From Microgenomates bacterium OLB22 (GTDB lineage Bacteria > Patescibacteriota > Microgenomatia > UBA1406 > HO2-37-13b), in NCBI GenBank assembly GCA_001567515.1, contig LLEV01000006.1, positions 5,039 through 69,038 of the forward strand: 64,000 nt of DNA, read 5' to 3'. The translations under genes were made by a program, and so were the position numbers. Numbering within the stretch: the first letter of the stretch is position 1; every line of letters starts with the position of its first letter. Under the pieces are notes generated by a model, which did not search any database, was not told where the DNA came from, and worked only from the letters and a program-made list of their open reading frames with translations. Shown one piece after another: positions 40,641 through 54,631 of this stretch.

Positions 40641-42074
40641 TTATTTGGACGGATCTATCAAAAAGTGCTCTAATTCGTTTTTACCTATTATCATGAGGTA
40701 GTCGAGCTGACTCCTATCACGGATATTAGCTTCGATAGTAAGCAACTTATCATTGATACTGCACTTAAGGAGCACCGCAATACGATAGCTATGCCCACTA
40801 CTACTATTGATTACGTGCGTACCGATTATGTCATCGTACTCACGGATAAGCGTTTTATGGAGTCTTTTCGCCCACTTGAGAGCTTCCTCCTTAGTCTCAA
40901 ATGACGGAGGAACTTTGTAGCTTTCAAATGCTTTTATAGTTTTTCTAAAGCCTAGCTTCTTTGCTAGATCAGTATCAATAGAGGAGTATGATGCTCCCGT
41001 GTCTACCTTAGCTTTGACTGTGATCTGCCTTTTACCTGATTTTGAGAATATAGTAACCGGCTGTATGAGGGAAATCACCTTTTTACCCGCAATAGCCTCG
41101 ATCTCTTCATCGACCTCGCCTCCAAATAGATCCTTGCCCAGGCGTATAGCATGTCTATCTGACTTGACCTTAATAAACCGCAGCTGTCTCAGCCGACCCT
41201 TAAGTCCATCTTCGTTAACAAGCTGTATTCGCAGGCCTGGGCGGGCATTGAGCTCTACTATAAGGGGGCCCTTATTATCATCTATTAAAAAATCTACTGC
41301 ACAAAAACCAAGTCCCGAAGCTCCTGCTGATTTCACTGCGTACTTGAGGATGGCATCCCAGTAGGGGATCTTAACCCCTGAATATCGGATCTTAGTTCCG
41401 GCTACATATTCGATATTTGTTATACGGCCGTTTTTAGACTCTTTGATCGAATGCGTTGTGATGCCTGTGGCGATATCTATCCCTGAAGCTGCAGCCCCCT
41501 CTGAGAGATTTGCCTTCCCAAGTGAGTCGATAGTAGGCCAGCGGATCATCGCCATGACAGGAACCCTCTTAAATAGAAGAATTCGGATATCTGGTGCTCC
41601 CATGTATGTGTAGTCTTTAAAGCCTTTATAGAGCTTGACCCTGTCTTCAAATATGGCTATATCTGGTTTATTCTTCAAAGAGAACTTGCCTTCCAAAATA
41701 GTTTGTATATGGAGAAATAGCCTTTGATGGGTCAATACCCCTCCATCGGCCTTGACAAAATCTCCGTCGCTATTCTTTTTGGTGATAACTAGGATCCCCC
41801 TACCAGCTACTCCATTGGCTGGCTTCAGCACAAAACTTTTAGGAAGCTCATTGAGCTCGAAGATGCGAAGCTGAGCTTTAGAGCTAATGATATGAATTAT
41901 TTTCGTACAAGGAATACCGGCCTTAGCTAAGACCTTTTTTGTAATTATCTTGTTGTCAGCAATTTGCTTCGCTGATCGGGAGTTATATTGGCGAATGTAG
42001 AGTAAATTTCGCTCATTTAACCCCAAAACCTTAACCCTCTTCTTCCACCAGTTTAGCATTTTCATTCTTACCAA
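40641..42074 (-). CDS. Alpha-L-glutamate-ligase-like (RimK-type ATP-grasp) protein fused to a retropepsin-like (RimB/DUF785-type) domain
   Basis: N-terminal LGLNERNLLYIRQYNSRSAKQIADNKIITKKVL plus ATP-grasp body. The C-terminal KAKVDTGASYSSIDTDLAKKLGF is the aspartic-protease-like motif. Confidence 0.75.
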   Translation of the reverse strand: MVRMKMLNWWKKRVKVLGLNERNLLYIRQYNSRSAKQIADNKIITKKVLAKAGIPCTKIIHIISSKAQLRIFELNELPKSFVLKPANGVAGRGILVITKKNSDGDFVKADGGVLTHQRLFLHIQTILEGKFSLKNKPDIAIFEDRVKLYKGFKDYTYMGAPDIRILLFKRVPVMAMIRWPTIDSLGKANLSEGAAASGIDIATGITTHSIKESKNGRITNIEYVAGTKIRYSGVKIPYWDAILKYAVKSAGASGLGFCAVDFLIDDNKGPLIVELNARPGLRIQLVNEDGLKGRLRQLRFIKVKSDRHAIRLGKDLFGGEVDEEIEAIAGKKVISLIQPVTIFSKSGKRQITVKAKVDTGASYSSIDTDLAKKLGFRKTIKAFESYKVPPSFETKEEALKWAKRLHKTLIREYDDIIGTHVINSSSGHSYRIAVLLKCSINDKLLTIEANIRDRSQLDYLMIIGKNELEHFLIDPSK

Positions 42075-42747
42075 CTAGCAAATCTCCAAACCTCAAGTAC
42101 TCGATCAGTCGTAACCCCAACCATTTTCCGGTTAATATCGTTATGATCAGAGCATAAAAGACGCTTTCTGGATGGGCGAGTACGAAGCCTCTTACAGCCT
42201 CCTGGGCAAATACAAAGTACATCCCCAAAGCTAGAACAAGGCTATATGCTGTAAGGATCATCGTTTTCCTAAAGCCCTTACGTACATAATTCCGAATAAT
42301 AATATCTACCATAAAAATTATCATAATTACTGGTATGGTATTGAGAGTCCCCGAAGCGATGGGGAATATAAGTACAAGCAAATACATGACTAGCCCTATG
42401 AAAATAGAGGCCGTTGTAAATGCTACACCAAGCTTTGACAGGTAGTGCATGCGGATTTCATTTAGCAATGTGTGTGAGAGAAATGCTGATAAGATTGAGA
42501 GCATCAGTAATATTCCCCCCATTTGTAGGCCTGATACTAGATTGATGCTATCTGTTATCGGATTGTATGACAGCTCATAAAACACAAAGGTCACCAGAAG
42601 TGTGGCATACATACTGAAGCTCTTCCAACCTATAATATAACGAGCCACAGCAACCATAGCTGCCGCTATAGGCAGATACAAAAGCGTTACAATCGTGTGC
42701 TCAGAAAGCCCATTTTGTAATAGTGTTGTAATAAGTGATTGGATCAT
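42031..42747 (-). CDS. Polytopic (about 7-TM) membrane protein, the usual partner of the glutamate-ligase-like ATP-grasp
   Basis: Hydrophobic helices throughout. Overlaps the downstream ATP-grasp gene. Confidence 0.55.
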   Translation of the reverse strand: MIQSLITTLLQNGLSEHTIVTLLYLPIAAAMVAVARYIIGWKSFSMYATLLVTFVFYELSYNPITDSINLVSGLQMGGILLMLSILSAFLSHTLLNEIRMHYLSKLGVAFTTASIFIGLVMYLLVLIFPIASGTLNTIPVIMIIFMVDIIIRNYVRKGFRKTMILTAYSLVLALGMYFVFAQEAVRGFVLAHPESVFYALIITILTGKWLGLRLIEYLRFGDLLVGKNENAKLVEEEG

Positions 42748-42808
42748 ACGTAAAGTATAGCAGAAAGGGTAGAAGTGAGCACCCCTTTACAGTAGACTAC
42801 GCATATGG

Positions 42809-43108
42809 ATGATATCAAATCAATACTCAAAAAACTTCAATCCACTCGAAGACAAATACATCTCTCGAGAGTTCCAGTCGTATGGTGTGCATATAGCCGA
42901 AGCCCTGGGAGACTACAAACATAAGAGCCTCTATATCAAGTTAGCCAAAGAATTGCCGCGCCCAGCAATAGAAAGAGCCTTGCGTTTTGTGATAGATTCA
43001 ACTGCTCGTAACAAAGGAGCCCTCTTTATGTGGAAGCTTCGCCAGATGGGAGTTATGGGAAAAGAGAAATCAAACTCAAAACTCAAAGATCATAAATCAA
43101 AGCCATAA
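42809..43108 (+). CDS. Hypothetical protein (99 aa)
   Basis: ORF only. Confidence 0.4.
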   Translation: MISNQYSKNFNPLEDKYISREFQSYGVHIAEALGDYKHKSLYIKLAKELPRPAIERALRFVIDSTARNKGALFMWKLRQMGVMGKEKSNSKLKDHKSKP

Positions 43109-43210: not shown

Positions 43211-46059
43211 TTATTGTATTCTCTCCCCTAAAAATTCCAGTACGGTAGAAATATCTCGAGAGTTGACTGTGTTATTAAAGTCAGGATCACAGGAAGTGTC
43301 TACATTTTCCCTCCTAAGTTGCTTCACACAGATCCCGTAGTCAACTGCATTGATAACTGTATCCTCATTTACATCACTTGCTACTCTGCGAATCTCTTGC
43401 TTGTACACATTCTTGAGTACTGTACAGTCTTTGGGACATGAGGTTGCTGTCTCCTGGGCTTGTGCATCACAGATGTTGTTCCCGCACATCACCACAGTAG
43501 GAAATGGAGTCGGCGAATTTTGTGGGTTAGAACTTTCCAACTGTTCAAACAAAACTTCATCATCATCGATATCTGCTATGCGCAAAAATCTCGTCTCCAG
43601 ATAGAAGGGAAGATAGAGATCTAAGGCCCTTCTGAGGATCCTTGTAGTAGAAGATCCCGTATCAAATGTGCTATCGTACTGAGGTACTTTCATACTAAAG
43701 ATTACTCCCTGATCCTCATCAAGTAGCTCCACAGTATAGTAGTCTTCTTCATAATTGGTCATATCGTAGATCGGGTATGAGCTCAGCAACTCCTTTTTAC
43801 TAAGGGCAAGTTTGTTAATACCAGTCTGATTTATGAGTACATGATGAGTCTTAAAGTACACGGGAGTAGCTTTATTACCAGTGGCAGGTGCATTTTCATC
43901 ATCCTCTCCGTCATGTAAAAATTGAAAAGAGGGCAAAGTCGCAGAAAATCGTGGGATACCTTTCTCCCATCCGTCGAGCGAAGGTCCGTTAAAATGGGAT
44001 GGCGTAAAATTCCCAAAGTTGTTCATAGCACTTTTCTCTGATGGCCTAAAGAGGTTTGGTTTTGAGCATCCAGCAAAACACGCATTGGGATATGAAGTTT
44101 TCCATAGAGAGCATTGAGAGTCGGCTGCACAGTTAGCGGCTCCCGCATTATGAAATCCTGAGTTGTATTCATCATCTAGTGGGGGACGTGGGACAGCGTG
44201 TCCCAGCTCATGACCTGTAAAGGCAAGTGTAGATGGGTCTGCTACAGCAGCAATGTCCCCGACAGCACCAGCAGATGTAGCCTTCCTTGTCACGATAAGG
44301 GCCTTGCCTCCGGCGCACTCACTCATGGCTCTACGAATAGCCTCATCATTAGTACAGGACAGAAAACGTCCCCCCAGAGCGTTTGACTTGCAAGCATAAT
44401 CCGTATCAAATTTATTGTAGGCAACAAATGCCAGTCGTGGCAGTATGCCAGGATTTGTTCGAGACTTTACATTTGAATTGAAAAATATCTCTAATCCTTT
44501 ACCGACGGCCAATTTAAATTCCTGCAGATTTGTATAGCCATCAGGGATGACAACTACTCGCAACATGTTCGGTGTCTGCACCTTGTTGTCCAGAGGAACA
44601 CATCGGTCGTTGGTGACATCTAGTATTGGCGGTAGCGACTGGGTAGTGGAGCCACCTGAGGTCTTCTTTTCTGTCGGTATGGCTGTGGGCTGCTGCACCT
44701 TGCCGGTGATAGTCTTTACATCTTCAGAAGAGCTACAATTAGTCGCCCCAGCTGCTACTGATGTCATATGGATTTCATAGCTTTCATTGGGATCAAACTT
44801 CTTCTTGTTCGCGGGTGAACACTCGGTTTTAACATCTTCACGATCGGCGGGTACTAGCCGTGAGCACAGTACTTCGGGGGAGCCTTTCTTCTTGATCTGC
44901 ATTTGAAATTGGTCAATAAACTCGCGAAGGCCCTCACATCCCTCCGGATACTCCCACTCTATTGCCATACGTGAGTCATTACTATTAGGCTTTACTCCGG
45001 CAGACTTTATCTTTGGTATACAAAGATTCTTATCCAAAAGGCACTGACTCGGATCCCTACGCTCCAAAACCCAACCGTAGTCATAGGTTTTGCCACAGGC
45101 TACAGGGAGGTCTTCGATGAGATTGCTTCCAGAAAGTGTGTCCGGCTCTGTGGCACAGAGCCCTTCAGCGTCGCACGAACGTATGACTTTATAGACGTCG
45201 GCATTATAGTGAAGCGTTACGGTGGCTTTATCTCCTGCTTGGATTTGGTACTGCTTATCCTCGGCACCACAACAGGTTTCTCCTGTCTGCACGCCATTAT
45301 TTGAGCTCCACGGGGAATACAGTCCTTTACTAAAGCGGACCCAATTAGCAGGCAGATCTCCTATAGCTGCTATAACCTTATCATTGATAGCTCCCCATTT
45401 CTCTGGACCATATAGAGTAGTCATGGGATAGTCTTTGCCTGCAAAACGCTCTCGAATAAAGGTCGTTGGTTTAAACACACATGCCTGGGCAGCAGGTTCA
45501 CCGCCACCCCCTGAGGTTTGTCTCTCAAGTACCCATCCATAAGTGATATCTACACCGCAATCGACGGTAAAATTGCGTATGGTAAAGTCAGGGTCAGTCT
45601 GTTGCTCTGCAAGATCCTTTTGCGAAGGACACCCCACAATGCTTCCTGGGTTTTGCTGACAGAAAATCTCCTTTACCCTCCACTTTTGTGTATCTACATT
45701 TATTAGGTCGATATATGCTCGATCCCCTGGATCATAGGAGGCATTATGTTTCTCCCTGCCTAAAATGAGCTCCTTAGTTTCGAAAATCATATGTGATAGG
45801 CCATCTTTATTGAGTTTAAGCTCTTCATTTTTGTCATTTACAACAGAGAAGGTGCCATCGTCTTCGTTGGAAATGAGTTTGGTGTCGTCGATTGCCCCGT
45901 CAAAAACTTTCACATGTGTTTTGTAGGCGCAGCTCGTATTTTTGAGCACGGGAGGTCGTTGTGTTGACATTTTTTGCTCAAGATCAGGCCTACGATCAAA
46001 AAAAATAGGGAAGCAATAGGAATAATAAAGGCAATACTTCCACGTGTTGGTACAGACAT
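43211..46059 (-). CDS. Cluster protein A: TM anchor + YGW domain(s) + M64-like HExxH peptidase + dockerin (frame broken at 45970-45975)
   Basis: MSVPTRGSIAFIIPIASLFFLIVGLIL (ATG at 46059) joins the track ORF at a T6 run. Contains TIRNFTVDCGVDITYGWVLE and LPVACGKTYDYGWVLE. FTGHELGHAV..PLDDEY resembles peptidase M64. C-terminal DVNEDTVINAVDY...DPDFNNTVNSRDISTVLEFLG is the dockerin. Confidence 0.7.
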
Positions 46060-46163
46060 AGTGATTAAATACTACCAATCATTCTAGAAGGAAAGCGGGA
46101 GGGAATCAATGATCAATTGGTCATATTCATTGAAGTATGAAGTTTGATGATTGGTTATAATGC

Positions 46164-46725
46164 TCAATTATCTCGTCTTCCAAGATAGGTCAAAACAAGA
46201 GATATATCAAGAGCGCTGACCTGCTTATCTTGGTCAATATCACAAGCAGCGGGACTCGGTGGATTTTCTACTTGTGTTATACAGGTGGTATAGTCGACGC
46301 TATTCACCTCCGTATCTGCATTGATGTCAGCCCTACGTTCTTGATTACAAAAGCCTGGTCGCACTGGTAAGCCCTCAGAACCTGCGACATAGACGCGTAT
46401 CGGGAGCCAGCAAGCCTCAAAAGGTGCGATCTGTAACAACTGAAGGACGCGTTGTTCTGCTTTATGAGTAACTTCTGTCGAATTTTGGTAAAGACGTATA
46501 GTAAAACTACTATCAAGTGACGTAAAAAAAGATTTTGTAGTCATCAGCGTCATCTAAGACATAACTGAGATCTCCGATCTGTGAGGATGATATGCTCGAG
46601 ATGTCCGGAAGCGTGATACCGTTGATGCGCATAGCTGCTTTGATAGGTAATGGCGCTGTCAGCATAAAACAGATTAGTAGCAGTGTTAGGATAAGGGTCT
46701 TTTTATGCATACTAGTTATCGACAT
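46164..46725 (-). CDS. Cluster protein B: small secreted dockerin protein (frame broken at A7 run 46524-46530)
   Basis: Signal peptide MHKKTLILTLLLICFMLTAPLPIKA. C-terminal ADINADTEVNSVDYTTC...CDIDQDKQVSALDISLVLTYLG. Confidence 0.6.
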
Positions 46726-48988
46726 GCGGTTGGTAATGGGTTCCAATGAGTCCAATCTGCACCATTTCGGCTCATAGATAACATTTTTTTCACATTTGTC
46801 GTTGGGTCAAAGTATTGTTGTTGACACCTCACAAAAGCCGCTTGGTCGACTACGGCACAACTACGACCTGGAGCGGTCCGTGGAGTACAGGAGCCTTGAT
46901 ATGAAGATGTATCACTAAAGCCACTTCCTGTCATCACGTATTTACATGATACAGGATCACGTCTTACTGATCCTCCTGTGCATCGATCTGCCCAGGGAAA
47001 GACGCTTATCTGAAATAGGCCAATGGCATAGGCAGGTGCATTATTTTTTAGACAACTGAGCTTGGATACTTTGTCTGCGAGGGCCGATGGGTCGCCTCCT
47101 GATTCCCGCCGACAGAGTGCCATTGCACAGGGTAAACGCTTATCGGCTTCGGCCGAGGAGACCCCTGCTTCTAGGAAGAATGGCTTGAGAAACTCTCTGG
47201 AACAATAGCCCTCGGATGTCTTCGGGGGCTCAGGAGGCTCTCACTCGGCTTATCGCTCTTGATATAGAGCTCGAGTGAGGCCAATGCTCCAGCTACTGTG
47301 GTAAAGGAACACTCTTCATTTTCAGTGCCAGCCTGCAAGACACTTCCGTTTAGGCAGCGTAACACCTTAATAGGTGTTTGAGGTGAGGTTTTTACTTTGA
47401 GAGTATGGGTCATAGCTGAGACTAAATCTTCAAAAGTAGCGGACACCTTTCCTTGAGAGGGAAGTTCGAGTTTTTTGACGCACTCTCTTGGAGTCTCGGA
47501 GCTATCTTGTTTGCAGCCTTCTATCGTGGCTTCGATAGTGATTGTTCTGTCAGTGGCATTTTTAAGCTCTAGATGGAGCTTTCCTGTTGCCAGAGGCTCG
47601 CTTCGAGATGCATCTGATGGGCAAGGGGTACATATCGACCGTCGGCCATCTTCACGTGGATTTTCCCAACTACATTTGGATCCATCACCAATGCCATCGC
47701 CTATGATGCATCTTCCATACTTAGTACACGTTCGTAGCGATCCATCTGAACAAAGCTCAGTGTATGAGTCAGTACAGTAGCTTCCTTTAGTCTCACAGAT
47801 AGCAGTTTTCTGAGGCGGGGTCGATGTTGGGCGTGCCTTGTCCTGGGATTGATTCTGACCGCAGCATAGATATACAGAGCTTCCTCCTCGTGCACTGATT
47901 TTGTTTACGCATTTTCCTCCACCTTGTCTACAATTAGCACAGGTTGTGACAGTTTCACACTGCCTTTCTGGTGGTGCCCATAAGACTATGGGGACAGTCT
48001 TTTTCTCCCTATTGATTGAGATTTCTCTTCGGGCATCTGCACAGACTTTGAGTAGTTCTGTGGGTCTACCCTTATTTAGATTTACCTCATAAGTCCCAGC
48101 AGGCAGGGAAGTAAATGTGACAGAGTCGCAAGCGCTTTCTTTTTTCTGATCAGAGACTTTTGCCCCATCCTTTGTGAGATCTATTCGACACTCTCCAAGA
48201 TAGTATTCAATTCCTGCACCATCTAGATCGTTATTTACAGCTCGTTCCAGCTTCGTGATATCACAAAGATCTCCTGATGGGCGGTCCTGACTGCGGACCA
48301 CAAATACTTTTGACTCAATAGCCCCTGTGCTATCAGTATCTGTAGCCAAAGTGGGGGCAGGGATAGTCGTTGGCTCAGTTGATGGTGATGGTGAGGGACG
48401 CGAAAGATCCTCTACTATCCAGCCATACGTAATATCCACGTCACATGCCACGTTAAAATCACGGATGGTGTTTGTGGGGACTTCTCGTTGATTGGCAAGC
48501 TGATCATCTTCGGGGCAGCCCCTGATTCCTGAGTGTTGTTCGCAAAAAATATCAGTTATCTTGTAGCGTGACCCTAATGAATCGCTAATCAAGGTGACGG
48601 CAGCTTTCTCTTGTGCCCTGTACTTCTTATCATCGGAGGAGTCTGTGGTTGTGAGGCGAATAAAGTTATTGAATACATCGTAGCTTTTCCCACCCCGCTT
48701 TAGTTCTATGGATTGACCCTTATTATTTTCGACAACAAATCGTTCTTGGTCATTTACGGCGATCAATTGGCCTTGGCGATTCTTTTTGAGCACCAGTATC
48801 TCTGTGCGATATGCACAAGATTGAGCTTGTGTAAAAAATCCTCTAGGAGAGCCATTCGATAGTATCCCACTAGTGCCGACAACAAGCCCCAAGAGCAGAC
48901 TTGCAAGGGAAGTCAGTCCAATGGCTACATGTAATTCACCATGCTGGTAGGATTTCTGAGTCATAGCGTATAACACATTGTACAGCAA
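46716..48988 (-). CDS. Cluster protein C: TM anchor + YGW domain + Cys-rich region + SLT lytic-transglycosylase domain (frame broken at G5 run 47224-47228)
   Basis: TM helix VAIGLTSLASLLLGLVVGT and TIRDFNVACDVDITYGWIVE. The downstream frame reads ...GYCSREFLKPFFLEAGVSSAEADKRLPCAMALCRRESGGDPSA...AYAIGLFQI (E-S...GLxQ SLT signature). Confidence 0.65.
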
Positions 48989-49006
48989 CCTCGATGACTG
49001 CGTCAG

Positions 49007-51131
49007 TTATTTCACCGATTGCCCAGCAAGATTTAGGAGGAGCGATCTGTCTGAAGCAGTAATAGAATCGTCTTTGTTGAGATCACAATGAGTAGGTATG
49101 TTTTTTGTCTCTTTTAAGCATTCAACCAGGTCCAAGGTATTGCATTCGCCGTCACTATTTACATCACACATGTCTCTACCGGTGGAGACCTGCTGATTCT
49201 CGATATAGAGAGGCTCACCACCAATAATCTCTTTTTCTCCACATGAGTCTCCAAGTTGATTGGTACATCTCAGGGAATAGGTGCGGCCTTGTTGGATAGG
49301 AGTTTGCTGGTCTAGATTTCTGACCATATATGTTTGGTCAGTTGAGAGCTGTGAGCTATCTATAGATGCACAGCTACCAAGTTGCTGATCGCAAATGGAG
49401 ATATTTAACATACTTGGGGTGGCTTGGATCATAGGGATAGTTCCTTGCCCACCTTCACCTAAAATGATATACGAGGCTGTGTTTATCCGTGAATCGCTCT
49501 TGAAAGGATCAAAGAAGTCTGTATGAAATCGTTGTCTAACTGTAACATTTTTGATCATACATCGTCGAACATGTTGGAAATTTAGCGGAGGGTTGTATAT
49601 GTATTGGCATGTTACTCCAATGGTATCCCCGAGTCGGAGAGGCTCACCAGACGCGTCTTGGGCAATGATATAGTGTACTTCTTTGAAGTACTTCCCATTT
49701 TTTAAAGCAGAGATGAGATCATCTTGATTTTGAATATCCTTGTCTAAGGCTACGGGATCAAAGAAAACACAGCGATTGGTGTCGTTGTTATCAGACGAGC
49801 TTGCCTTGGGGCATATCCCAGGACGGAAAGCCTGCATATAGGGAGCATATGCGCCAACACTACTTTGCACCTGGCTACCAATAGTATCTATGTCGTATGT
49901 CACGGCAATCACGGGGTCTCCAATCTGTGCTATCCTCCTCTTTGAGCCGGGGATGCTGAGGGCTACGCGTTCGTCAATCTGAAAAGACTCTTGTGGGCTA
50001 AGAATATTTTCAAACACCCTAATATCTCCTTTACGTATAGGCTTCGGGCGACAACGTCGCCACTCATCATAGGTAACATTCGGATAAGGAATCATACGGA
50101 AAGCGGGGCCTTTTATGAGGTAGTATTGGCAAGTGAGGTAGTAGGTCTTACCTTTTTCAAGCGGGATGGCATCATAGTCGGTTCTTTGTACCTTTGCAGG
50201 TCTTAAAGATCCAGATATTCGATCTTTCCTGACTGCTGAGCGAGGCTTTGCATCAAACCATCTGCAGTGTGCGGCTAGATCAGGATCAGTTGTTCGGTAT
50301 GCCTCGTCATTATCTGTGTCACAGATTGCAAATTTGAAACTCATAAATGACTTAAAACTCACATGGGGTGAGAAATTCCAGTTGCCTAGCACATCATAAG
50401 GTGAGAGTGACCAGCCCCCTGTTGGTGGTAGTGGTTTTGATGTCGGCGAGGGTTTTTTGGTAGGAGTTGATCCCTTAGTTGGGGACCTTTTGGGTGGGTT
50501 GGGGATGCTGTGGGTCGTGATGTGGTTGAGGTCGGGGTAGGTCTTTTGGTTGGTGATAATGTAGGTGAAGTTTTGGTAGTTGGAGTTAGGAGGCTACCCG
50601 TGGGTGATACGTCAGCGCATGCTGAGACTTTTTTGTGTCTACTAGCATGCAACGAAAAATCTTTGAGCTTGCGTCAAAAGGATTATCCCATATACATCGA
50701 AGTGTACGATCAAAGGGTATAAGAATATCATTCTTCCTATCTATGTATCCGTTGCACTCAGATTTCGTTATGCCTTCAAGCTGACCTATCATTTTACCGG
50801 CGCACTTATTTATCTGAACAGACACAAAAAGGGGATTTTGTATAGGCAGTCTGTTGTTTGTATAGTCGACGACTAGTCTTCCTGGCGTCACAGACCCATT
50901 GGCTGAGCAAGTAGTAACTTTACAATGACTCCCTTGTGACTGGTAGGTGCCTCTGGCACTATCGGCATTAATAAAGCACATATCATTTGTATCCCCCCAT
51001 ACGAAGAGTGACGTAGTCATAGGTGGGTGAGACCCCGATGTTTGTGCTTGTATAGTGGTCCCTTTAGCTGCCAGCGCAATCATCATCAAACAGCCTCCTA
51101 CTAAAGGAATCAAGTATTTGTTCAGAAGCAT
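49007..51131 (-). CDS. Cluster protein D: TM anchor + 'MCFINAD' domain + P/T linker + 3x 'TCQY' beta-modules + dockerin (two frame breaks)
   Basis: The ATG at 51131 lies 3 nt after a TATACTATA box. Track ORFs 50586-51212, 50386-50652 (TPTTKTSPTLSPTKRPTPTSTT linker) and 49007-50392 join at T6 50629-50634 and ~50481-50491. C-terminal CDVNSDGECNTLDLVEC...CDLNKDDSITASDRSLLLNLAG. Confidence 0.65.
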
Positions 51132-51147
51132 GAGTATAGTATATAGC

Positions 51148-53972
51148 TTAGTTCGTTGCTCCGGCGTAGTCAAATAGTAAGGAGATATCTGCAGCATCGA
51201 CATGCCTATCATTATTCATATCACATGCCTGAGTATGCTTCCCGTAGGCGACGGCCTGACATTGGGCAACATCGATGATGGTACAGGCGCCATCTGCATC
51301 TCGGTCACACCGTTCAAGCCTGCTCTGAGTGTTAAAGGAAATCGTGCTGTCAGGTGAAATATAGGTGTCAAAATAAACAGAATCACCTGCTCGTGCAGTT
51401 CTTGTCCCACAGGATACGAAGCCCTCCTCATCTGTCTTGTACTGACAGGTGATTTCATAATCTTTACCAAGCACTAATTCTTTTCCAAAAAGGGAAGCGA
51501 TGTTGGAAGAAGTAGTATAGATACCATTTGCAGTATCGGAAAAAGCACTATGTTCAATCACATCGCAGGCCCCTGTATCTGGATCACATATAGTGTACTG
51601 AAAATCCTGAGTATCAGGTTGCTGAGATGTATCCTCACTACTGGTAAAAAGCGGGATACTGGCTGTCCCTTGATTTTTTATAACTAGTACATCCTTGTTA
51701 GAATTACGACTAGGCAGGTTCCCCCAGGGAGACTGCATATCTGCCTTACCCTGGACAAAATTGTCGTTTACTTTTACCGCTCGCGGTCTACATCGTACTA
51801 CTTGAGCATCCTCACTTGGTGTTGGATTTTCACTATCAAGTGTCAAAAATTGGCATGTCACATAGACTGTGTCACCAGCTTTAAGTGCTTTTCCTGCAGC
51901 ATCAATTGAGGATAAAAATGAAATTTTCTTCTCTGTATCTTTGTAGCTAAATGGCTCTAGCGCTGAAAAGTACTTACATTCATTTGTCAGCTTTTCAGAA
52001 GGACACACCCCCACCTTAAAAGCAGCAATAGTGTCATCTGCCGATATCTTTAAGGACTGCTTAAACAAAAAGGTAAGTCCGATATAGGGTTTACCATTTT
52101 TGGGAGGTATGGGTCCTATACCACCATCGGACATAGCTACATTGAAGGGAACCAAAAAGTATTGCTTTGGGTCTAGTAGCTCTTGAAAAGTAAGTTTCTC
52201 ACCTCTTAAAATAGAATCTAGGTCAAGCTGCCCTGGCTTACAACGTCGCCACTCAGGATCATAGAGGGCAACAGTCCATTCATTCATCTCAAAATACTGG
52301 CATGTCGCATAGTACTCCTTTCCACTTGTCCTTGAAAGAGGGTTTCCATCGAAGTCGACCGATATATCAGCCAGTGGCTTTATAGTGCCCTTGGAGGGCT
52401 TTTGGGAGTTAAGTAGGATCTCTTTGTTTGTGGCATCAGTAGGAAACCATTTGCATTTTGCGCCTCCGTTGGCTCTAGTCTTCATGTGTGCAGATTGGTC
52501 AGCGGTATCACAGATACCAAACTTAAAGCCAGTTATCTTGTCTTGTGCGAGTCCGATCTTTTCAAACCGTGAATCCCAATAGAGCTCCACCTGATTTTTT
52601 CTGATTACGACTTCGTGGTTTGCTTCAGGCTTTTTAGTGGGCTGGGGCTTGGTACGGTTGGTGATAATCTCTTAGTAGGGGAAACGCGGGGTGAAACAGA
52701 CTTTGTAGGCGCAGGTTTTTTTGCTTTTGTCGGTGCAAGAGAAACTGAGCGGGTCGGCGCACCCGGTGAGCTAGCTTCTTCCTTTTGTGCCTCCGGCTCA
52801 TCATCCTCGATCTCAGCGCAGACCCCTTCCGGCGACTTTGGGTCTGATTCTCGCACCTCCTGACAGGTAAAATTCAAAGCGATAGTGGCTTTGTCAGAGG
52901 GGTTCTTCCAGACACATCGGACCTTCTTACCGTGGCCCACAGGGAAGTTGTCTTTACGTGAAATGAAATTATTACATTCATTCTTACCATTTCCCGCCAG
53001 CTCCCCCAACACTTTTCCTGGACAATGATTTATCTGAGCACTAAGATTGAGCGGGTCCTCTGCCGGATTTGTCTTATTAGTGAAATCGACCACAAGAGCC
53101 GTTGGCTCATTGGTCACCCTATCTTTACAACTTATCACATTACAATGCTTTCCTTGGGATCTATGTTCTCCGAGCTTCGTGTCTGCATTGATAAAACACA
53201 TATCCTCACCTCCATGCTCAGTACTCCAGGTAAATAGGGAATAGGTATCTTTTGATTGCGTAGTAGTATCTGGAGGAGTCTGGGAGGCTGGCGGCGTTGG
53301 GGACAATTCTATTGAGGGTGTGACTTGGGAGCTCTGTGGGGTTGGAGAACTAGTAGCTGATCCCTCTTTAGATTTTACTACCCAGCCATAGTTGATATCC
53401 ACTCCGCAGGTTATTTCAAAATCTCGTATCGTTGTCCCGACATCTTGTTTGGCTATATCTGGCGGGCAGCCAGGGCCGCTATTGTTTGACGTGCAGAACG
53501 TTCTCATTAGTTCATATCCTTCATCAATTCCGTCGGCAAAAAGTTTCACTGACGCCCTATCCTCATTAGCATAATCAGCCCCCGTTTGTGGTTTGAGAGG
53601 TAGCCTCTCTGTCGCAAATGTAACCTCAGCTATATCCCCGAAAGTCTGCGAAGGGGAGATGGTGTTCTTCTCAAGCTGCTTGTCATTTGATACCCCCCAG
53701 GCTGAAAGATCTGCATCCTGTTTGGTAAGTGCTCTCAAAGACCCATCCTGCCCTTCCTCATAGACACCAAATGTTGTTCTAAATGAACAGCTTGCTTGAT
53801 TTTCAGAAGCACGACCAAAGGTGGTTCTCAGTTGCTTTGAAACAGCTGTGTTTGCACCTATGAAACTCCCAATAAGTATGATACTAATTGATAGTATTGT
53901 CAGAAAAAGACTAATCTCTCCCAGTAAATATACATTTCTAGACGATTGTATTTTAGCTGGGAGATGATCCAT
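51148..53972 (-). CDS. Cluster protein E: TM anchor + YGW domain + 'MCFINAD' domain + K/P/S/T linker + 3x 'TCQY' modules + dockerin (probable frame break at 52631-52635)
   Basis: Track ORFs 52605-53972 and 51148-52590. The second frame is open upstream through the linker (KPQPTKKPEANHEVVIRKNQVELYWD). TIRDFEITCGVDINYGWVV. C-terminal CDRDADGACTIIDVAQC...CDMNNDRHVDAADISLLFDYAG. Confidence 0.6.
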
Positions 53973-54019: not shown

Positions 54020-54631
54020 TTACTTTGTTACTTTCAGCAGTGCGCCGTTGGTAACACCGAGGGTATTTTCACCATTGAGGGCAGTGATAGTACCATCCTT
54101 TTCACGCTTGACAAAGTCAAGGGCAGATGAGGCAGCTTCTTTCTTAGCCTTCACAGTAAATGAGAAGACAGTACCTTCCTTTAGATCATCCTTTTTAGAA
54201 GGAGAGACAGATGCTGAGAATTTGATTTCACCAGCAGTGGTATCAACCTTGTTGACAATGACATTGGAAAAGACCGTGCCATTAGTGACTCCAGAGACAT
54301 CAAAGACAGCAGGGTCAAAAGAGAGGACAATGTCAGCAGCAGCGACAGGGATACGAGAGAGCGTAACCTCAATCTTTTGAGAAGCACCGATTTTAAGAGT
54401 AGCTTCATTAGGAACAAGAGCTAAAGCAGTAGAGGGACGTGTTTCGGGTTGAGTAGTAGCATCAGTACCAGTGGTAGGTTGCTCATCTACTTTTTTAGAG
54501 CCACCAGTCAAGAGGGAACCAACAACCACACTTGCTATGAACAACAACCCAATTAGCAGTATGATCGTTGCCTTCCTTTGGGATGGAAGTGTTTTAAATT
54601 GGCCAAGATCTTTCTGAATTGTTCTAAACAT
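54020..54631 (-). CDS. Cluster protein F: membrane-anchored cohesin-like protein
   Basis: TM helix ATIILLIGLLFIASVVVGSLL and a T/P linker. IGASQKIEVTLSRIPVAAADIVLSFDPAVFDVSGVTNG...AGEIKFSAS...EGTVFSFTVKAKK follows the cohesin beta-sandwich pattern. Confidence 0.6.
   Translation of the reverse strand: MFRTIQKDLGQFKTLPSQRKATIILLIGLLFIASVVVGSLLTGGSKKVDEQPTTGTDATTQPETRPSTALALVPNEATLKIGASQKIEVTLSRIPVAAADIVLSFDPAVFDVSGVTNGTVFSNVIVNKVDTTAGEIKFSASVSPSKKDDLKEGTVFSFTVKAKKEAASSALDFVKREKDGTITALNGENTLGVTNGALLKVTK

What the first reader, a model, noticed from the sequence alone, without database searches (positions are those of the whole stretch)
43211..53972. Uncharacterised 'YGW' domain shared by three cluster proteins and the RHS shell
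A ~150-aa module directly follows the TM helix of A, C and E. Its landmarks are SC[AS][YF][RK]T early on, then D[RK]A.V.L........[WY].[IVL].....C......G..GCP, and it ends TIR[DN]F.[VI].C[GD]VDI[TN]YGW[VI][VL]. YGW codons lie at ~45533, ~48450 and ~53381. A degenerate second copy occurs in A (LPVACGKTYDYGWVLE), and one copy lies inside the RHS protein (..SVKLYYDTDNWTIV..IIGDFTIQCNINVNYGW, ~9390-9690). Being shared between anchor-proximal positions and the toxin suggests a common attachment or assembly function.
Basis: seen in the sequence. Interest (0 to 1): 0.55.

Follow-up and report, generated by a model that had tools for sequence, protein, structure and literature searches.

The report
Undescribed surface-protein domain of Microgenomates bacteria
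A roughly 140-residue, disulfide-containing all-beta module ending in "YGW" occurs five times in this window, belongs to a rare family absent from the domain databases I searched, and is most likely a structural building block of cell-surface proteins in Microgenomates (candidate phyla radiation) bacteria.

Summary
The window has exactly five YGW modules: two in protein A, one each in C and E, and one in the RHS shell gene. A profile built only from sequences outside the window scores them at 4e-34, 1e-19, 1e-29, 2e-35, and 1e-7 plus 2e-9 for the two halves of the RHS copy.

Two corrections:
- The RHS copy is cut by a one-base frame break, and another break follows it. A's membrane helix also lies in a different frame. 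The source is an Ion Torrent assembly (Microgenomates bacterium OLB22), so these breaks are probably sequencing errors.
- A's second copy is a full-length subtype with extra cysteines, not a degenerate copy.

The family is real but rare: 92 clusters among 1.84 billion representatives. Nothing matched in Pfam, NCBIfam or PDB sequences. AlphaFold gives a confident beta-sandwich (pLDDT 90). Foldseek finds no significant neighbour; Gram-positive pilin shaft domains recur as weak hits.

Among homologues, 84 of 91 have an N-terminal membrane helix, 44 of 89 carry a dockerin, and 35 of 91 have 2-4 copies. Payloads vary. Three intact RHS-repeat proteins carry the module, two of them colinear with the window's RHS gene. 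Conserved positions are four cysteines plus mostly hydrophobic residues.

Best reading: a disulfide-stapled structural pedestal. A binding or assembly role is not excluded. It is a new member of a known kind, of moderate interest.

The parts
45512..45940 (-). YGW module, copy 1 of protein A (aa 47-189 of ORF 43211..46078)
   Evidence: Independent family profile gives E 4e-34. blastp to C gives 6e-21.
45047..45496 (-). YGW module, copy 2 of protein A (aa 195-344). Full-length subtype with an extra Cys-rich insert.
   Evidence: Profile E 1.4e-19 over profile positions 2-149. AF2 model has pLDDT 84 and pTM 0.81. Thirteen homologue domains belong to the same subtype.
48395..48829 (-). YGW module of protein C (aa 54-198 of ORF 47171..48988; KXK08807.1)
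   Evidence: Profile E 1e-29. AF2 model has pLDDT 90.4 and pTM 0.84. Identified as KXK08807.1.
53361..53804 (-). YGW module of protein E (aa 57-204 of ORF 52605..53972; KXK08811.1)
   Evidence: Profile E 2e-35. Identified as KXK08811.1.
9255..9566 (+). RHS-embedded YGW module, N-terminal two thirds (end of ORF 6951..9572). It follows a Pro/Thr-rich linker.
   Evidence: Profile E 1.2e-7 over profile positions 2-98. Colinear with P0053 aa 1606-1754.
9580..9693 (+). RHS-embedded YGW module, C-terminal third, in the +1 frame after a one-base break at 9567-9570. The A8 run at 9684-9691 breaks the frame again.
   Evidence: Profile E 1.7e-9 over profile positions 109-147. tblastn with the E module gives 5.7e-5. 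DNA read directly.
48860..48928 (-). N-terminal membrane helix of C, preceded by H-G-E-L
   Evidence: Read from the translation. Hydropathy 2.16.
53853..53915 (-). N-terminal membrane helix of E, preceded by L-G-E-I
   Evidence: Read from the translation. Hydropathy 2.53.
45979..46041 (-). Membrane helix that belongs to A but lies in a different frame (small ORF 45910..46059). One more A in an A6 run would fuse it to the A ORF.
43241..43378 (-). C-terminal type I dockerin of protein A (aa 901-946)
   Evidence: Pfam Dockerin_1, E 7.7e-5, 23.3 bits against a cutoff of 22.9.
54020..54631 (-). Membrane-anchored cohesin protein at the head of the cluster. Presumed receptor for the cluster's dockerins.
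   Evidence: Pfam Cohesin, E 1.1e-9. Homologues flank the YGW/dockerin genes in L007.
4409..10034 (+). RHS shell gene that hosts the fifth copy. It reads as one ~1875-aa protein only after four one-base corrections (6908-6914, 9567-9570, 9684-9691, ~9988-9993).
   Evidence: Pfam RHS_repeat, E 5.6e-19. The product corrected at the first three sites aligns at 33% identity over 1957 columns with intact P0053. The fourth correction is read from the junction sequence, and the resulting ending matches the L005 shell protein.

Best explanation
**What it is.** The YGW module is a previously undescribed extracellular domain of about 140 residues. Named source records place it in Microgenomates (OP11, candidate phyla radiation) bacteria. 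The window itself comes from Microgenomates bacterium OLB22.

**Shown here.**
- It folds with high predicted confidence as a beta-sandwich with long first and last strands and one short helix.
- It carries four near-invariant cysteines. The outer pair lies at the start of strand 1 and just before the last strand. The inner pair closes a 9-10 residue loop.
- It occurs in 1-4 copies per protein. It usually lies behind an N-terminal membrane helix and ahead of Pro/Thr-rich linkers and variable payloads: dockerin, VWA, peptidases, pectate lyase, lysozyme-like domains and RHS repeats.

**Inferred.**
- The two cysteine pairs form disulfides. The outer one would staple the N-terminal strand to the C-terminal hairpin, much as the isopeptide bond does in Gram-positive pilin shaft domains.
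- The module acts as a rigid, protease- and force-resistant pedestal or spacer. It holds payloads at or above the membrane surface of these cell-wall-bearing episymbionts.
- In the RHS proteins the same module, on a Pro/Thr linker, decorates the shell near its C-terminal end.
- "YGW" is the hydrophobic core of the last strand, not a ligand site.
For: **Family is real and rare.** An exhaustive HMMER search finds 92 clusters at E<=1e-3 and 36 at E<=1e-10 among 1.84e9 representatives.

**All five window copies are recovered** by a profile that excludes window sequences.

**Structure.** The AF2 models are confident: pLDDT 90.4 / pTM 0.84 for the C module and 84.0 / 0.81 for A copy 2, both all-beta. 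The best though non-significant Foldseek neighbours in two independent searches are Gram-positive pilin or adhesin shaft domains:
- GBS52 (3phs): probability 0.97, TM 0.45
- Spy0128 (3b2m, 3gld)
- Cpa (2xid)
- PitB, SpaA and SpaD

Dioxygenase chains also recur among the weak hits; from memory, Pfam places their domain in the same clan (Transthyretin) as the pilin domains. The only Pfam family touched by more than one of the 56 domains is SpaA_4, the prealbumin-like fold (E 0.07).

**Cysteines.**
- 108 of 119 domains have all four.
- The outer pair is about 100% conserved.
- The inner pair is lost together in 5 domains, including the window's RHS copy and P0053.
- 102 domains have an even Cys count and 17 an odd count.

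**Conserved positions.** Columns conserved at 60% or more are C, V, N, F, Y, A, V, L, C, G, C, P, I, C, G, Y, G, W. Only one of these (Asn) is polar.

**Architecture.**
- 84 of 91 homologues have an N-terminal membrane helix.
- In 43 of them the first module starts within 35 aa of the helix, typically after 10-19 aa.
- 35 of 91 have 2-4 copies, some directly abutting.
- Payloads are heterogeneous.
- There is no LPXTG motif.
Against: - The disulfide pairing, the positions of the termini and the burial of Y/W are inferred from the sequence and the secondary-structure string only.
- Foldseek gives no hit at E<=1e-3 or TM>=0.5, so the pilin-like analogy is weak.
- A narrowly fixed 10-19 aa tether to the membrane in half of the proteins, and a near-invariant Asn in the N[DN]K loop, could mark a position-specific binding function rather than a passive spacer.
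- There is no experimental data for any member.
Confidence: 0.5

Rival explanations
1. The module is a carbohydrate- or cell-wall-binding module (CBM-like). It would target the attached enzymes or toxins to host or own-envelope glycans.
For: It is a beta-sandwich of about 140 aa, a typical CBM size and class. It is found with pectate lyase (3 proteins), GH88, GH5, CBM96, lysozyme-like SLT_3 (4) and CHAP. Aromatic Y, W and F residues and one Asn are conserved.
Against: No CBM family appears in Pfam even at E<=10, and none appears among the top Foldseek hits. The module is equally common with peptidases, VWA and RHS, or with no recognisable enzyme. The conserved Y-G-W alternates with conserved hydrophobic residues in the last strand, which suggests a core rather than a binding platform. 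Many copies sit 10-19 aa from the membrane, far from any substrate.
Confidence: 0.2
2. This is the first reader's idea: the module is a protein-protein attachment or assembly module. It would dock different surface proteins, and the RHS shell, onto a common partner or onto each other near the membrane.
For: Functionally different proteins in one gene cluster share the module. The short tether to the membrane helix has a fixed length in 43 proteins. The clustering with cohesin and dockerin genes is conserved in L007. A conserved [RK]GE[ILV] motif at the helix start suggests a shared handling pathway.
Against: No partner was identified. There is no conserved polar surface signature. The module lies more than 100 aa from the helix in about half of the anchored homologues and occurs in tandem arrays. 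It is unrelated to cohesin. Half of the family has no dockerin.
Confidence: 0.2
3. The resemblance is not a real domain: it arises from chance, low complexity or a local duplication artefact. Alternatively, it is a known family that was overlooked.
For: the search for homologous proteins returned nothing in two tries.
Against: Pairwise E-values reach 6e-21. An exhaustive search finds 92 clusters. A profile that excludes the window still detects all five copies. Two AF2 models are confident. Pfam, NCBIfam and PDB sequence searches are all negative. The empty searches are best explained by the limits of that tool's word index.
Confidence: 0.02

Closest known systems
Shaft domains of Gram-positive sortase-assembled pilins and adhesins (CnaB / SpaA / prealbumin-like fold; e.g. 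Spy0128 3b2m, GBS52 3phs, SpaA 5f44, PitB 4s3l)
   Same: Both are extracellular all-beta sandwiches of similar size, used singly or in tandem as stalk elements of surface proteins. Both have a covalent cross-link inferred or known between the first strand and the C-terminal strand region. These domains recur as the best Foldseek neighbours in two independent searches. There is also a faint SpaA_4 Pfam signal.
   Different: Similarity is below significance (E>=0.009, TM<=0.45). Two conserved cysteine pairs are available for cross-linking, and no conserved Lys / Asn / Glu isopeptide triad is evident. There is no LPXTG sorting signal (0 of 92). Anchoring is by an N-terminal membrane helix. No Pfam pilin family is matched above threshold.
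Non-catalytic spacer modules of cellulosomal and other dockerin-bearing proteins (X modules, Ig-like / PKD / Fn3 spacers)
   Same: It is a promiscuous beta-sandwich module in multi-modular secreted proteins that also carry dockerins. It sits in a gene cluster with a membrane-anchored cohesin.
   Different: It has no sequence or significant fold match to these families. It is placed at the N-terminal, membrane-proximal end rather than next to the dockerin. It contains disulfides. Named source records are Microgenomates lineages; three further loci carry an unverified Gammaproteobacteria label.
Cohesin (PF00963)
   Same: It has a similar size and is all-beta. It is encoded in the same cluster as dockerin proteins.
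   Different: hhalign probability against the window's cohesin is 0.4%. There is no Pfam match. Apart from one weak hit to a scaffoldin complex (4fl4, E 2.0, probability 0.15, TM 0.39), no cellulosome or cohesin entry appears among the top 50 Foldseek hits.

Membership tests
Gram-positive pilin shaft domain (CnaB / SpaA / prealbumin-like) | Match to a family profile (Pfam Cna_B, SpaA, SpaA_4, GramPos_pilinBB and related) above threshold | tested here: not met
   None of the five window copies matches at E<=10. Among 56 family domains, SpaA_4 is hit by 2 at E 0.07, far below the gathering score.
Gram-positive pilin shaft domain (CnaB / SpaA / prealbumin-like) | Same fold as solved pilin domains (TM-score >= 0.5 or a significant Foldseek E-value) | tested here: inconclusive
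   Pilins are the recurrent top hits, but with E>=0.009 and TM 0.3-0.45.
Gram-positive pilin shaft domain (CnaB / SpaA / prealbumin-like) | Intramolecular Lys-Asn/Asp isopeptide bond with a catalytic Glu/Asp | not testable with these tools
The conserved columns include no Lys or Glu at 60% or more, and four Cys are conserved instead.
Gram-positive pilin shaft domain (CnaB / SpaA / prealbumin-like) | C-terminal LPXTG sortase signal on the host protein | tested here: not met
   None of 92 family proteins has an LPxTG-like motif in its last 60 aa.
Cohesin | Pfam PF00963 match or profile similarity to a cohesin | tested here: not met
   There is no Pfam hit. hhalign against the window's cohesin gives probability 0.4%.
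Carbohydrate-binding modules (any CBM family in Pfam) | Profile match to a CBM family, or structural match to a CBM | tested here: not met
   No CBM family matches the module at E<=10. No CBM appears among the top Foldseek hits. Glycan binding itself cannot be tested here.
Cohesin-dockerin surface system (as an accessory module) | Co-occurrence with a dockerin in the same protein, or with a cohesin in the same locus | tested here: met
   44 of 89 homologues carry Dockerin_1. Both the window and L007 clusters encode membrane-anchored cohesins. The link is not obligatory: C and E lack a dockerin.
RHS / YD-repeat shell proteins (host of the fifth copy) | RHS repeats on both sides of the module, with the arrangement conserved in intact homologues | tested here: met
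   Pfam RHS_repeat scores 5.6e-19 on ORF 6951..9572. YD repeats continue in ORF 9668..10018. P0053 and P0061 are colinear intact proteins, and L005 encodes a 1995-aa ORF with the module at aa 1697-1878.

The most novel reading that the evidence does not exclude
The YGW module and the conserved [RK]GE[ILV]-A-T-x-L-T start of the membrane helix together mark a Microgenomates-specific surface-display system. In this reading, a dedicated signal-anchor plus a disulfide-stapled pedestal presents dockerin-tagged enzymes, adhesins and a two-gene (split) RHS toxin on membrane-anchored cohesins. That would amount to an attack and attachment apparatus of these episymbionts. The YGW module would have a specific role, for example contact with the cell wall or S-layer, or lateral assembly, rather than being a passive spacer.
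Probability: 0.2. Interest if true: 0.6.

Novelty: new member of a known kind. Interest (0 to 1): 0.38.

Why it matters
Candidate phyla radiation bacteria are thought to live attached to host cells, but their surface proteins are almost entirely unannotated.

A defined, modelled domain family would let annotators recognise and delimit these proteins. About 90 sequence clusters carry it, including dockerin-bearing enzymes, VWA adhesins and RHS toxins.

It also flags a conserved cohesin-dockerin gene cluster in Microgenomates and gives a stable, expressible unit for structural and binding studies.

It does not reveal a new principle. Extracellular beta-sandwich spacer modules are common.

Tried and rejected
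**Searches that gave nothing.**
- The search for homologous proteins with the 5-copy and the 56-sequence alignments returned no hits. This is probably a limit of that tool's word index, because the exhaustive HMMER search found 92 clusters.
- The look-up of encoding contigs for protein E returned "not on record".
- The search for related loci with the 56-sequence alignment failed because the alignment was too divergent. A 13-sequence alignment worked, but only through the pattern CGVD[IL]xYGW. It therefore sampled 7 genome loci and 3 metagenome loci and undercounts the family.
- Pfam, NCBIfam and PDB sequence searches of the module were all negative.
- Foldseek against PDB (two models) and BFVD found nothing at E<=1e-3.
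- Literature searches for dockerins in CPR or Microgenomates found no description of this module.

**Ideas considered and rejected.**
- Divergent cohesin: hhalign probability 0.4%.
- Sortase-type pilin: no LPXTG motif.
- Alternative genetic code as the cause of the stops: the source paper reports validating the standard code for all the draft genomes, and most ORFs in the window are intact under table 11.
- Phase variation or programmed frameshifting at the A-runs. This is less likely than Ion Torrent homopolymer error, for three reasons. The source paper reports correcting persistent frameshifts in these assemblies. Other A8 runs lie inside intact ORFs. The corrected proteins are colinear with intact homologues.

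Full report
**1. The observation**

The minus-strand cluster at 43.2-54.6 kb encodes the following:
- A (43211..46078, 955 aa, C-terminal dockerin)
- a small dockerin ORF and a lysozyme-like (SLT_3) ORF
- C (47171..48988, 605 aa)
- B and D, two dockerin proteins
- an ORF at 50586..51212
- E (52605..53972, 455 aa)
- a membrane-anchored cohesin (54020..54631)

The regions of A, C and E that follow the N-terminus are clearly homologous. A-C share 35% identity over 139 aa (E 6e-21), A-E gives 3e-14 and C-E gives 3e-15. A region further into A (aa 230-339) matches C at 8e-5.

YGW occurs only eight times in the six-frame translation of the window.

I then built a profile from 54 homologues found elsewhere, with every window sequence removed, and searched all six frames. 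It detects exactly five copies:

| Copy | Position | E-value |
|---|---|---|
| A copy 1 | aa 47-189 | 4e-34 |
| A copy 2 | aa 195-344 (full length) | 1.4e-19 |
| C | aa 54-198 | 1e-29 |
| E | aa 57-204 | 2e-35 |
| RHS, first piece | nt 9255-9566 | 1e-7 |
| RHS, second piece | nt 9580-9693 | 2e-9 |

**2. Corrections to the description**

*The RHS copy.* It cannot be read in one frame.
- ORF 6951..9572 ends "...SVKLYYDTDNWTIVT*".
- The rest of the module, "EATGLGAPETID...IIGDFTIQCNINVNYGWYLRKK", is in the next frame.
- Just after YGW, an A8 run (9684-9691) shifts the frame again into the YD-repeat ORF 9668..10018.

*The RHS gene as a whole.* It needs four one-base corrections. Three of them remove one A from an A7, A8 or A6 run. 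With the first three corrections made, the product aligns over 1957 columns (33% identity) with an intact 1853-aa protein, P0053. It also aligns with P0061 (2024 aa). The fourth correction gives the C-terminal ending "TYLFGDYEEVYE*", which matches the ending of a 1995-aa Roizmanbacteria ORF in L005. All three of these proteins carry a YGW module about 100-250 aa from the C-terminus.

*Protein A.* Its membrane helix lies in a different frame from the main ORF. One additional A in an A6 run would fuse the two.

*Likely cause of the breaks.* The proteins are KXK08807.1 (C), KXK08811.1 (E) and KXK08760.1 (an RHS fragment) of Microgenomates bacterium OLB22. That genome was assembled from Ion Torrent data, and its authors had to correct the assemblies for "persistent frameshifts" (PMC4821891). 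Residual homopolymer errors are therefore the most economical explanation. I could not check the reads.

*A's second copy.* It is not degenerate. It represents a subtype with an extra Cys-rich insert, and 13 homologue domains share that subtype, including the copy in the RHS protein P0061.

**3. What the family looks like**

*Size and novelty.* An exhaustive HMMER search of 1.84 billion representative proteins finds 92 clusters at E<=1e-3 and 36 at E<=1e-10. Three of the 92 are the window's own proteins. The following searches found nothing:
- Pfam, even at E<=10
- NCBIfam
- PDB sequences

*Taxonomy.* Named source records are Microgenomates OLB22, Candidatus Roizmanbacteria and Candidatus Woesebacteria. 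Three further loci come from MAGs labelled "uncultured Gammaproteobacteria", and I did not verify that label.

*Architecture of homologues.*
- 84 of 91 have an N-terminal hydrophobic helix.
- In 43 of these the first module starts within 35 aa of the helix, typically after 10-19 aa. In most of the others it lies hundreds of residues further in.
- 55 have one copy, 27 have two, 7 have three and 1 has four. Some copies abut directly.
- 44 of 89 carry a dockerin.
- Other partners are VWA (8), SLT_3 (4), RHS repeats (3), pectate lyase (3), peptidases S8, M28 and M4, GH88, GH5, CHAP and PKD. Many have no recognisable partner.
- None has an LPXTG motif.

*Conserved cluster.* A Woesebacteria locus (L007) repeats the window's arrangement: cohesin, four YGW proteins (three with dockerins), cohesin, dockerin protein. 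The same ATP-grasp and 7TM neighbours follow it.

**4. Structure and conserved positions**

AlphaFold2 with a 56-sequence alignment gives a confident model of the C module: pLDDT 90.4, pTM 0.84, with nine strands of three or more residues and one helix. A copy 2 also models well (pLDDT 84.0, pTM 0.81).

Foldseek finds nothing at E<=1e-3 in PDB or BFVD. The weak top hits are nevertheless consistent across searches:
- Gram-positive pilin and adhesin shaft domains: GBS52 (probability 0.97, TM 0.45), Spy0128, Cpa, PitB, SpaA and SpaD.
- Intradiol dioxygenase chains. From memory, Pfam groups their domain with CnaB/SpaA in the Transthyretin clan.
- The only Pfam family touched by more than one family member is SpaA_4, at E 0.07.

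I read this as a beta-sandwich, possibly distantly related to the prealbumin / CnaB class. That relationship is not demonstrated.

Across 119 aligned domains:
- The columns conserved at 60% or more are C, V, N, F, Y, A, V, L, C, G, C, P, I, C, G, Y, G, W.
- All four Cys are present in 108 domains.
- The outer pair is about 100% conserved.
- The inner pair is missing together in five domains, including the window's RHS copy and its homologue P0053.
- Cys counts are even in 102 domains and odd in 17.

This pattern fits two disulfides in a secreted domain. It also fits a motif (Y-G-W, alternating with hydrophobic residues in the last strand) that belongs to the core.

**5. Mechanism**

*Shown.* This is a recurrent, confidently folding, Cys-bearing extracellular module. 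It lies between a membrane helix and variable payloads, often in tandem, and it is also inserted near the end of RHS shells.

*Inferred.*
- The outer disulfide ties the first strand to the C-terminal hairpin. The start of strand 1 and the start of the last strand carry the two Cys, which would be adjacent if those strands run parallel, as they do in pilin shaft domains.
- The domain serves as a rigid pedestal or spacer.

I give this reading about 0.5.

*Rivals.*
- Glycan or cell-wall-binding module: 0.2.
The fixed 10-19 aa tether, the near-invariant Asn of the N[DN]K loop and the shared [RK]GE[ILV] helix-start motif keep this alive.
- The module is unrelated to the cluster's cohesin (hhalign probability 0.4%).

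**6. Comparison, novelty and verdict**

The closest known things are pilin-type shaft domains and the non-catalytic spacer modules of dockerin-bearing proteins. The YGW module plausibly works like them but fails their membership tests:
- no profile match
- no significant fold match
- no LPXTG motif
- cysteine pairs in place of an evident isopeptide triad

It is best filed as a new member of a known kind: a new, lineage-restricted extracellular beta-sandwich domain family. Its value is mainly for annotation and as an entry point to the surface biology of candidate phyla radiation bacteria. Interest: 0.38.

Noticed in passing
window 6908-6914, 9567-9570, 9684-9691, ~9988-9993 (RHS gene) and ~45960-45970 (gene A): There are five one-base frame breaks in two surface-protein genes, and four of them lie in A6-A8 runs. 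The corrected products are colinear with intact homologues. The source genome is an Ion Torrent assembly whose authors report correcting frameshifts, so these are probably residual sequencing errors. Real pseudogenisation or phase variation has not been excluded. Other A8 runs (1265, 3274, 24810, 31627) lie inside intact ORFs.
   Followed up: partly
window 4409-10034 and 10006-11334; L005 11558-20332: The RHS system is split into two genes. The shell protein ends at '...TYLFGDYEEVYE*'. The final RHS core plus the toxin domain is a separate 442-aa ORF with its own N-terminal signal-like helix. The Roizmanbacteria locus L005 has the same split, with two alternative toxin-tip cassettes (481 and 467 aa) downstream of its shell gene.
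   Followed up: partly
N-termini of window C (48934-48942) and E (53913-53921); 46 of 84 anchored family proteins; L004 3989..6436, L004 6417..8843, L007 11175..13496: A conserved [RK]-G-E-[ILV]-A-T-x-L-T motif sits exactly at the start of the N-terminal membrane helix. It is also present in proteins of related loci that lack the YGW module, two of them with dockerin-like motifs. It matches neither the type IV pilin G-F-T-L-I-E signal nor any Pfam signal family. It could be a lineage-specific sorting or processing signal.
   Followed up: partly
window 52854-53276 (E aa 233-373) and 50640-51026 (ORF 50586..51212 aa 63-191): A second uncharacterised Cys-containing module is shared by E and the 208-aa ORF (43% identity, E 2e-36). 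It has no Pfam or NCBIfam match.
   Followed up: no
window 49007-50392 and 51148-52590: B and D are paralogous dockerin proteins (28% identity over 499 columns, E 8e-45). By eye, each appears to contain a repeated Cys-containing unit of unknown family ahead of the dockerin.
   Followed up: no
window 40641-43108; L007 13429-15937: The cohesin / YGW / dockerin cluster is flanked in both the window and a Woesebacteria MAG by the same three genes: a conserved 100-aa ORF (42809..43108, 70% identity), a 7TM_transglut membrane protein, and an ATP-grasp_ST plus Zn-protease fusion (56% identity).
   Followed up: no
window 46164-46553 and 46716-47123: A 135-aa lysozyme-like (SLT_3) ORF and a 129-aa dockerin ORF lie in the same frame, separated by stop codons. 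They may be pieces of a single SLT-dockerin gene. SLT_3 occurs together with YGW in four homologues.
   Followed up: no
window 4586-4625 (RHS aa 60-72): A single dockerin-like calcium-loop motif (DENNDGYINTLD) lies just after the N-terminal membrane helix of the RHS shell protein.
   Followed up: no
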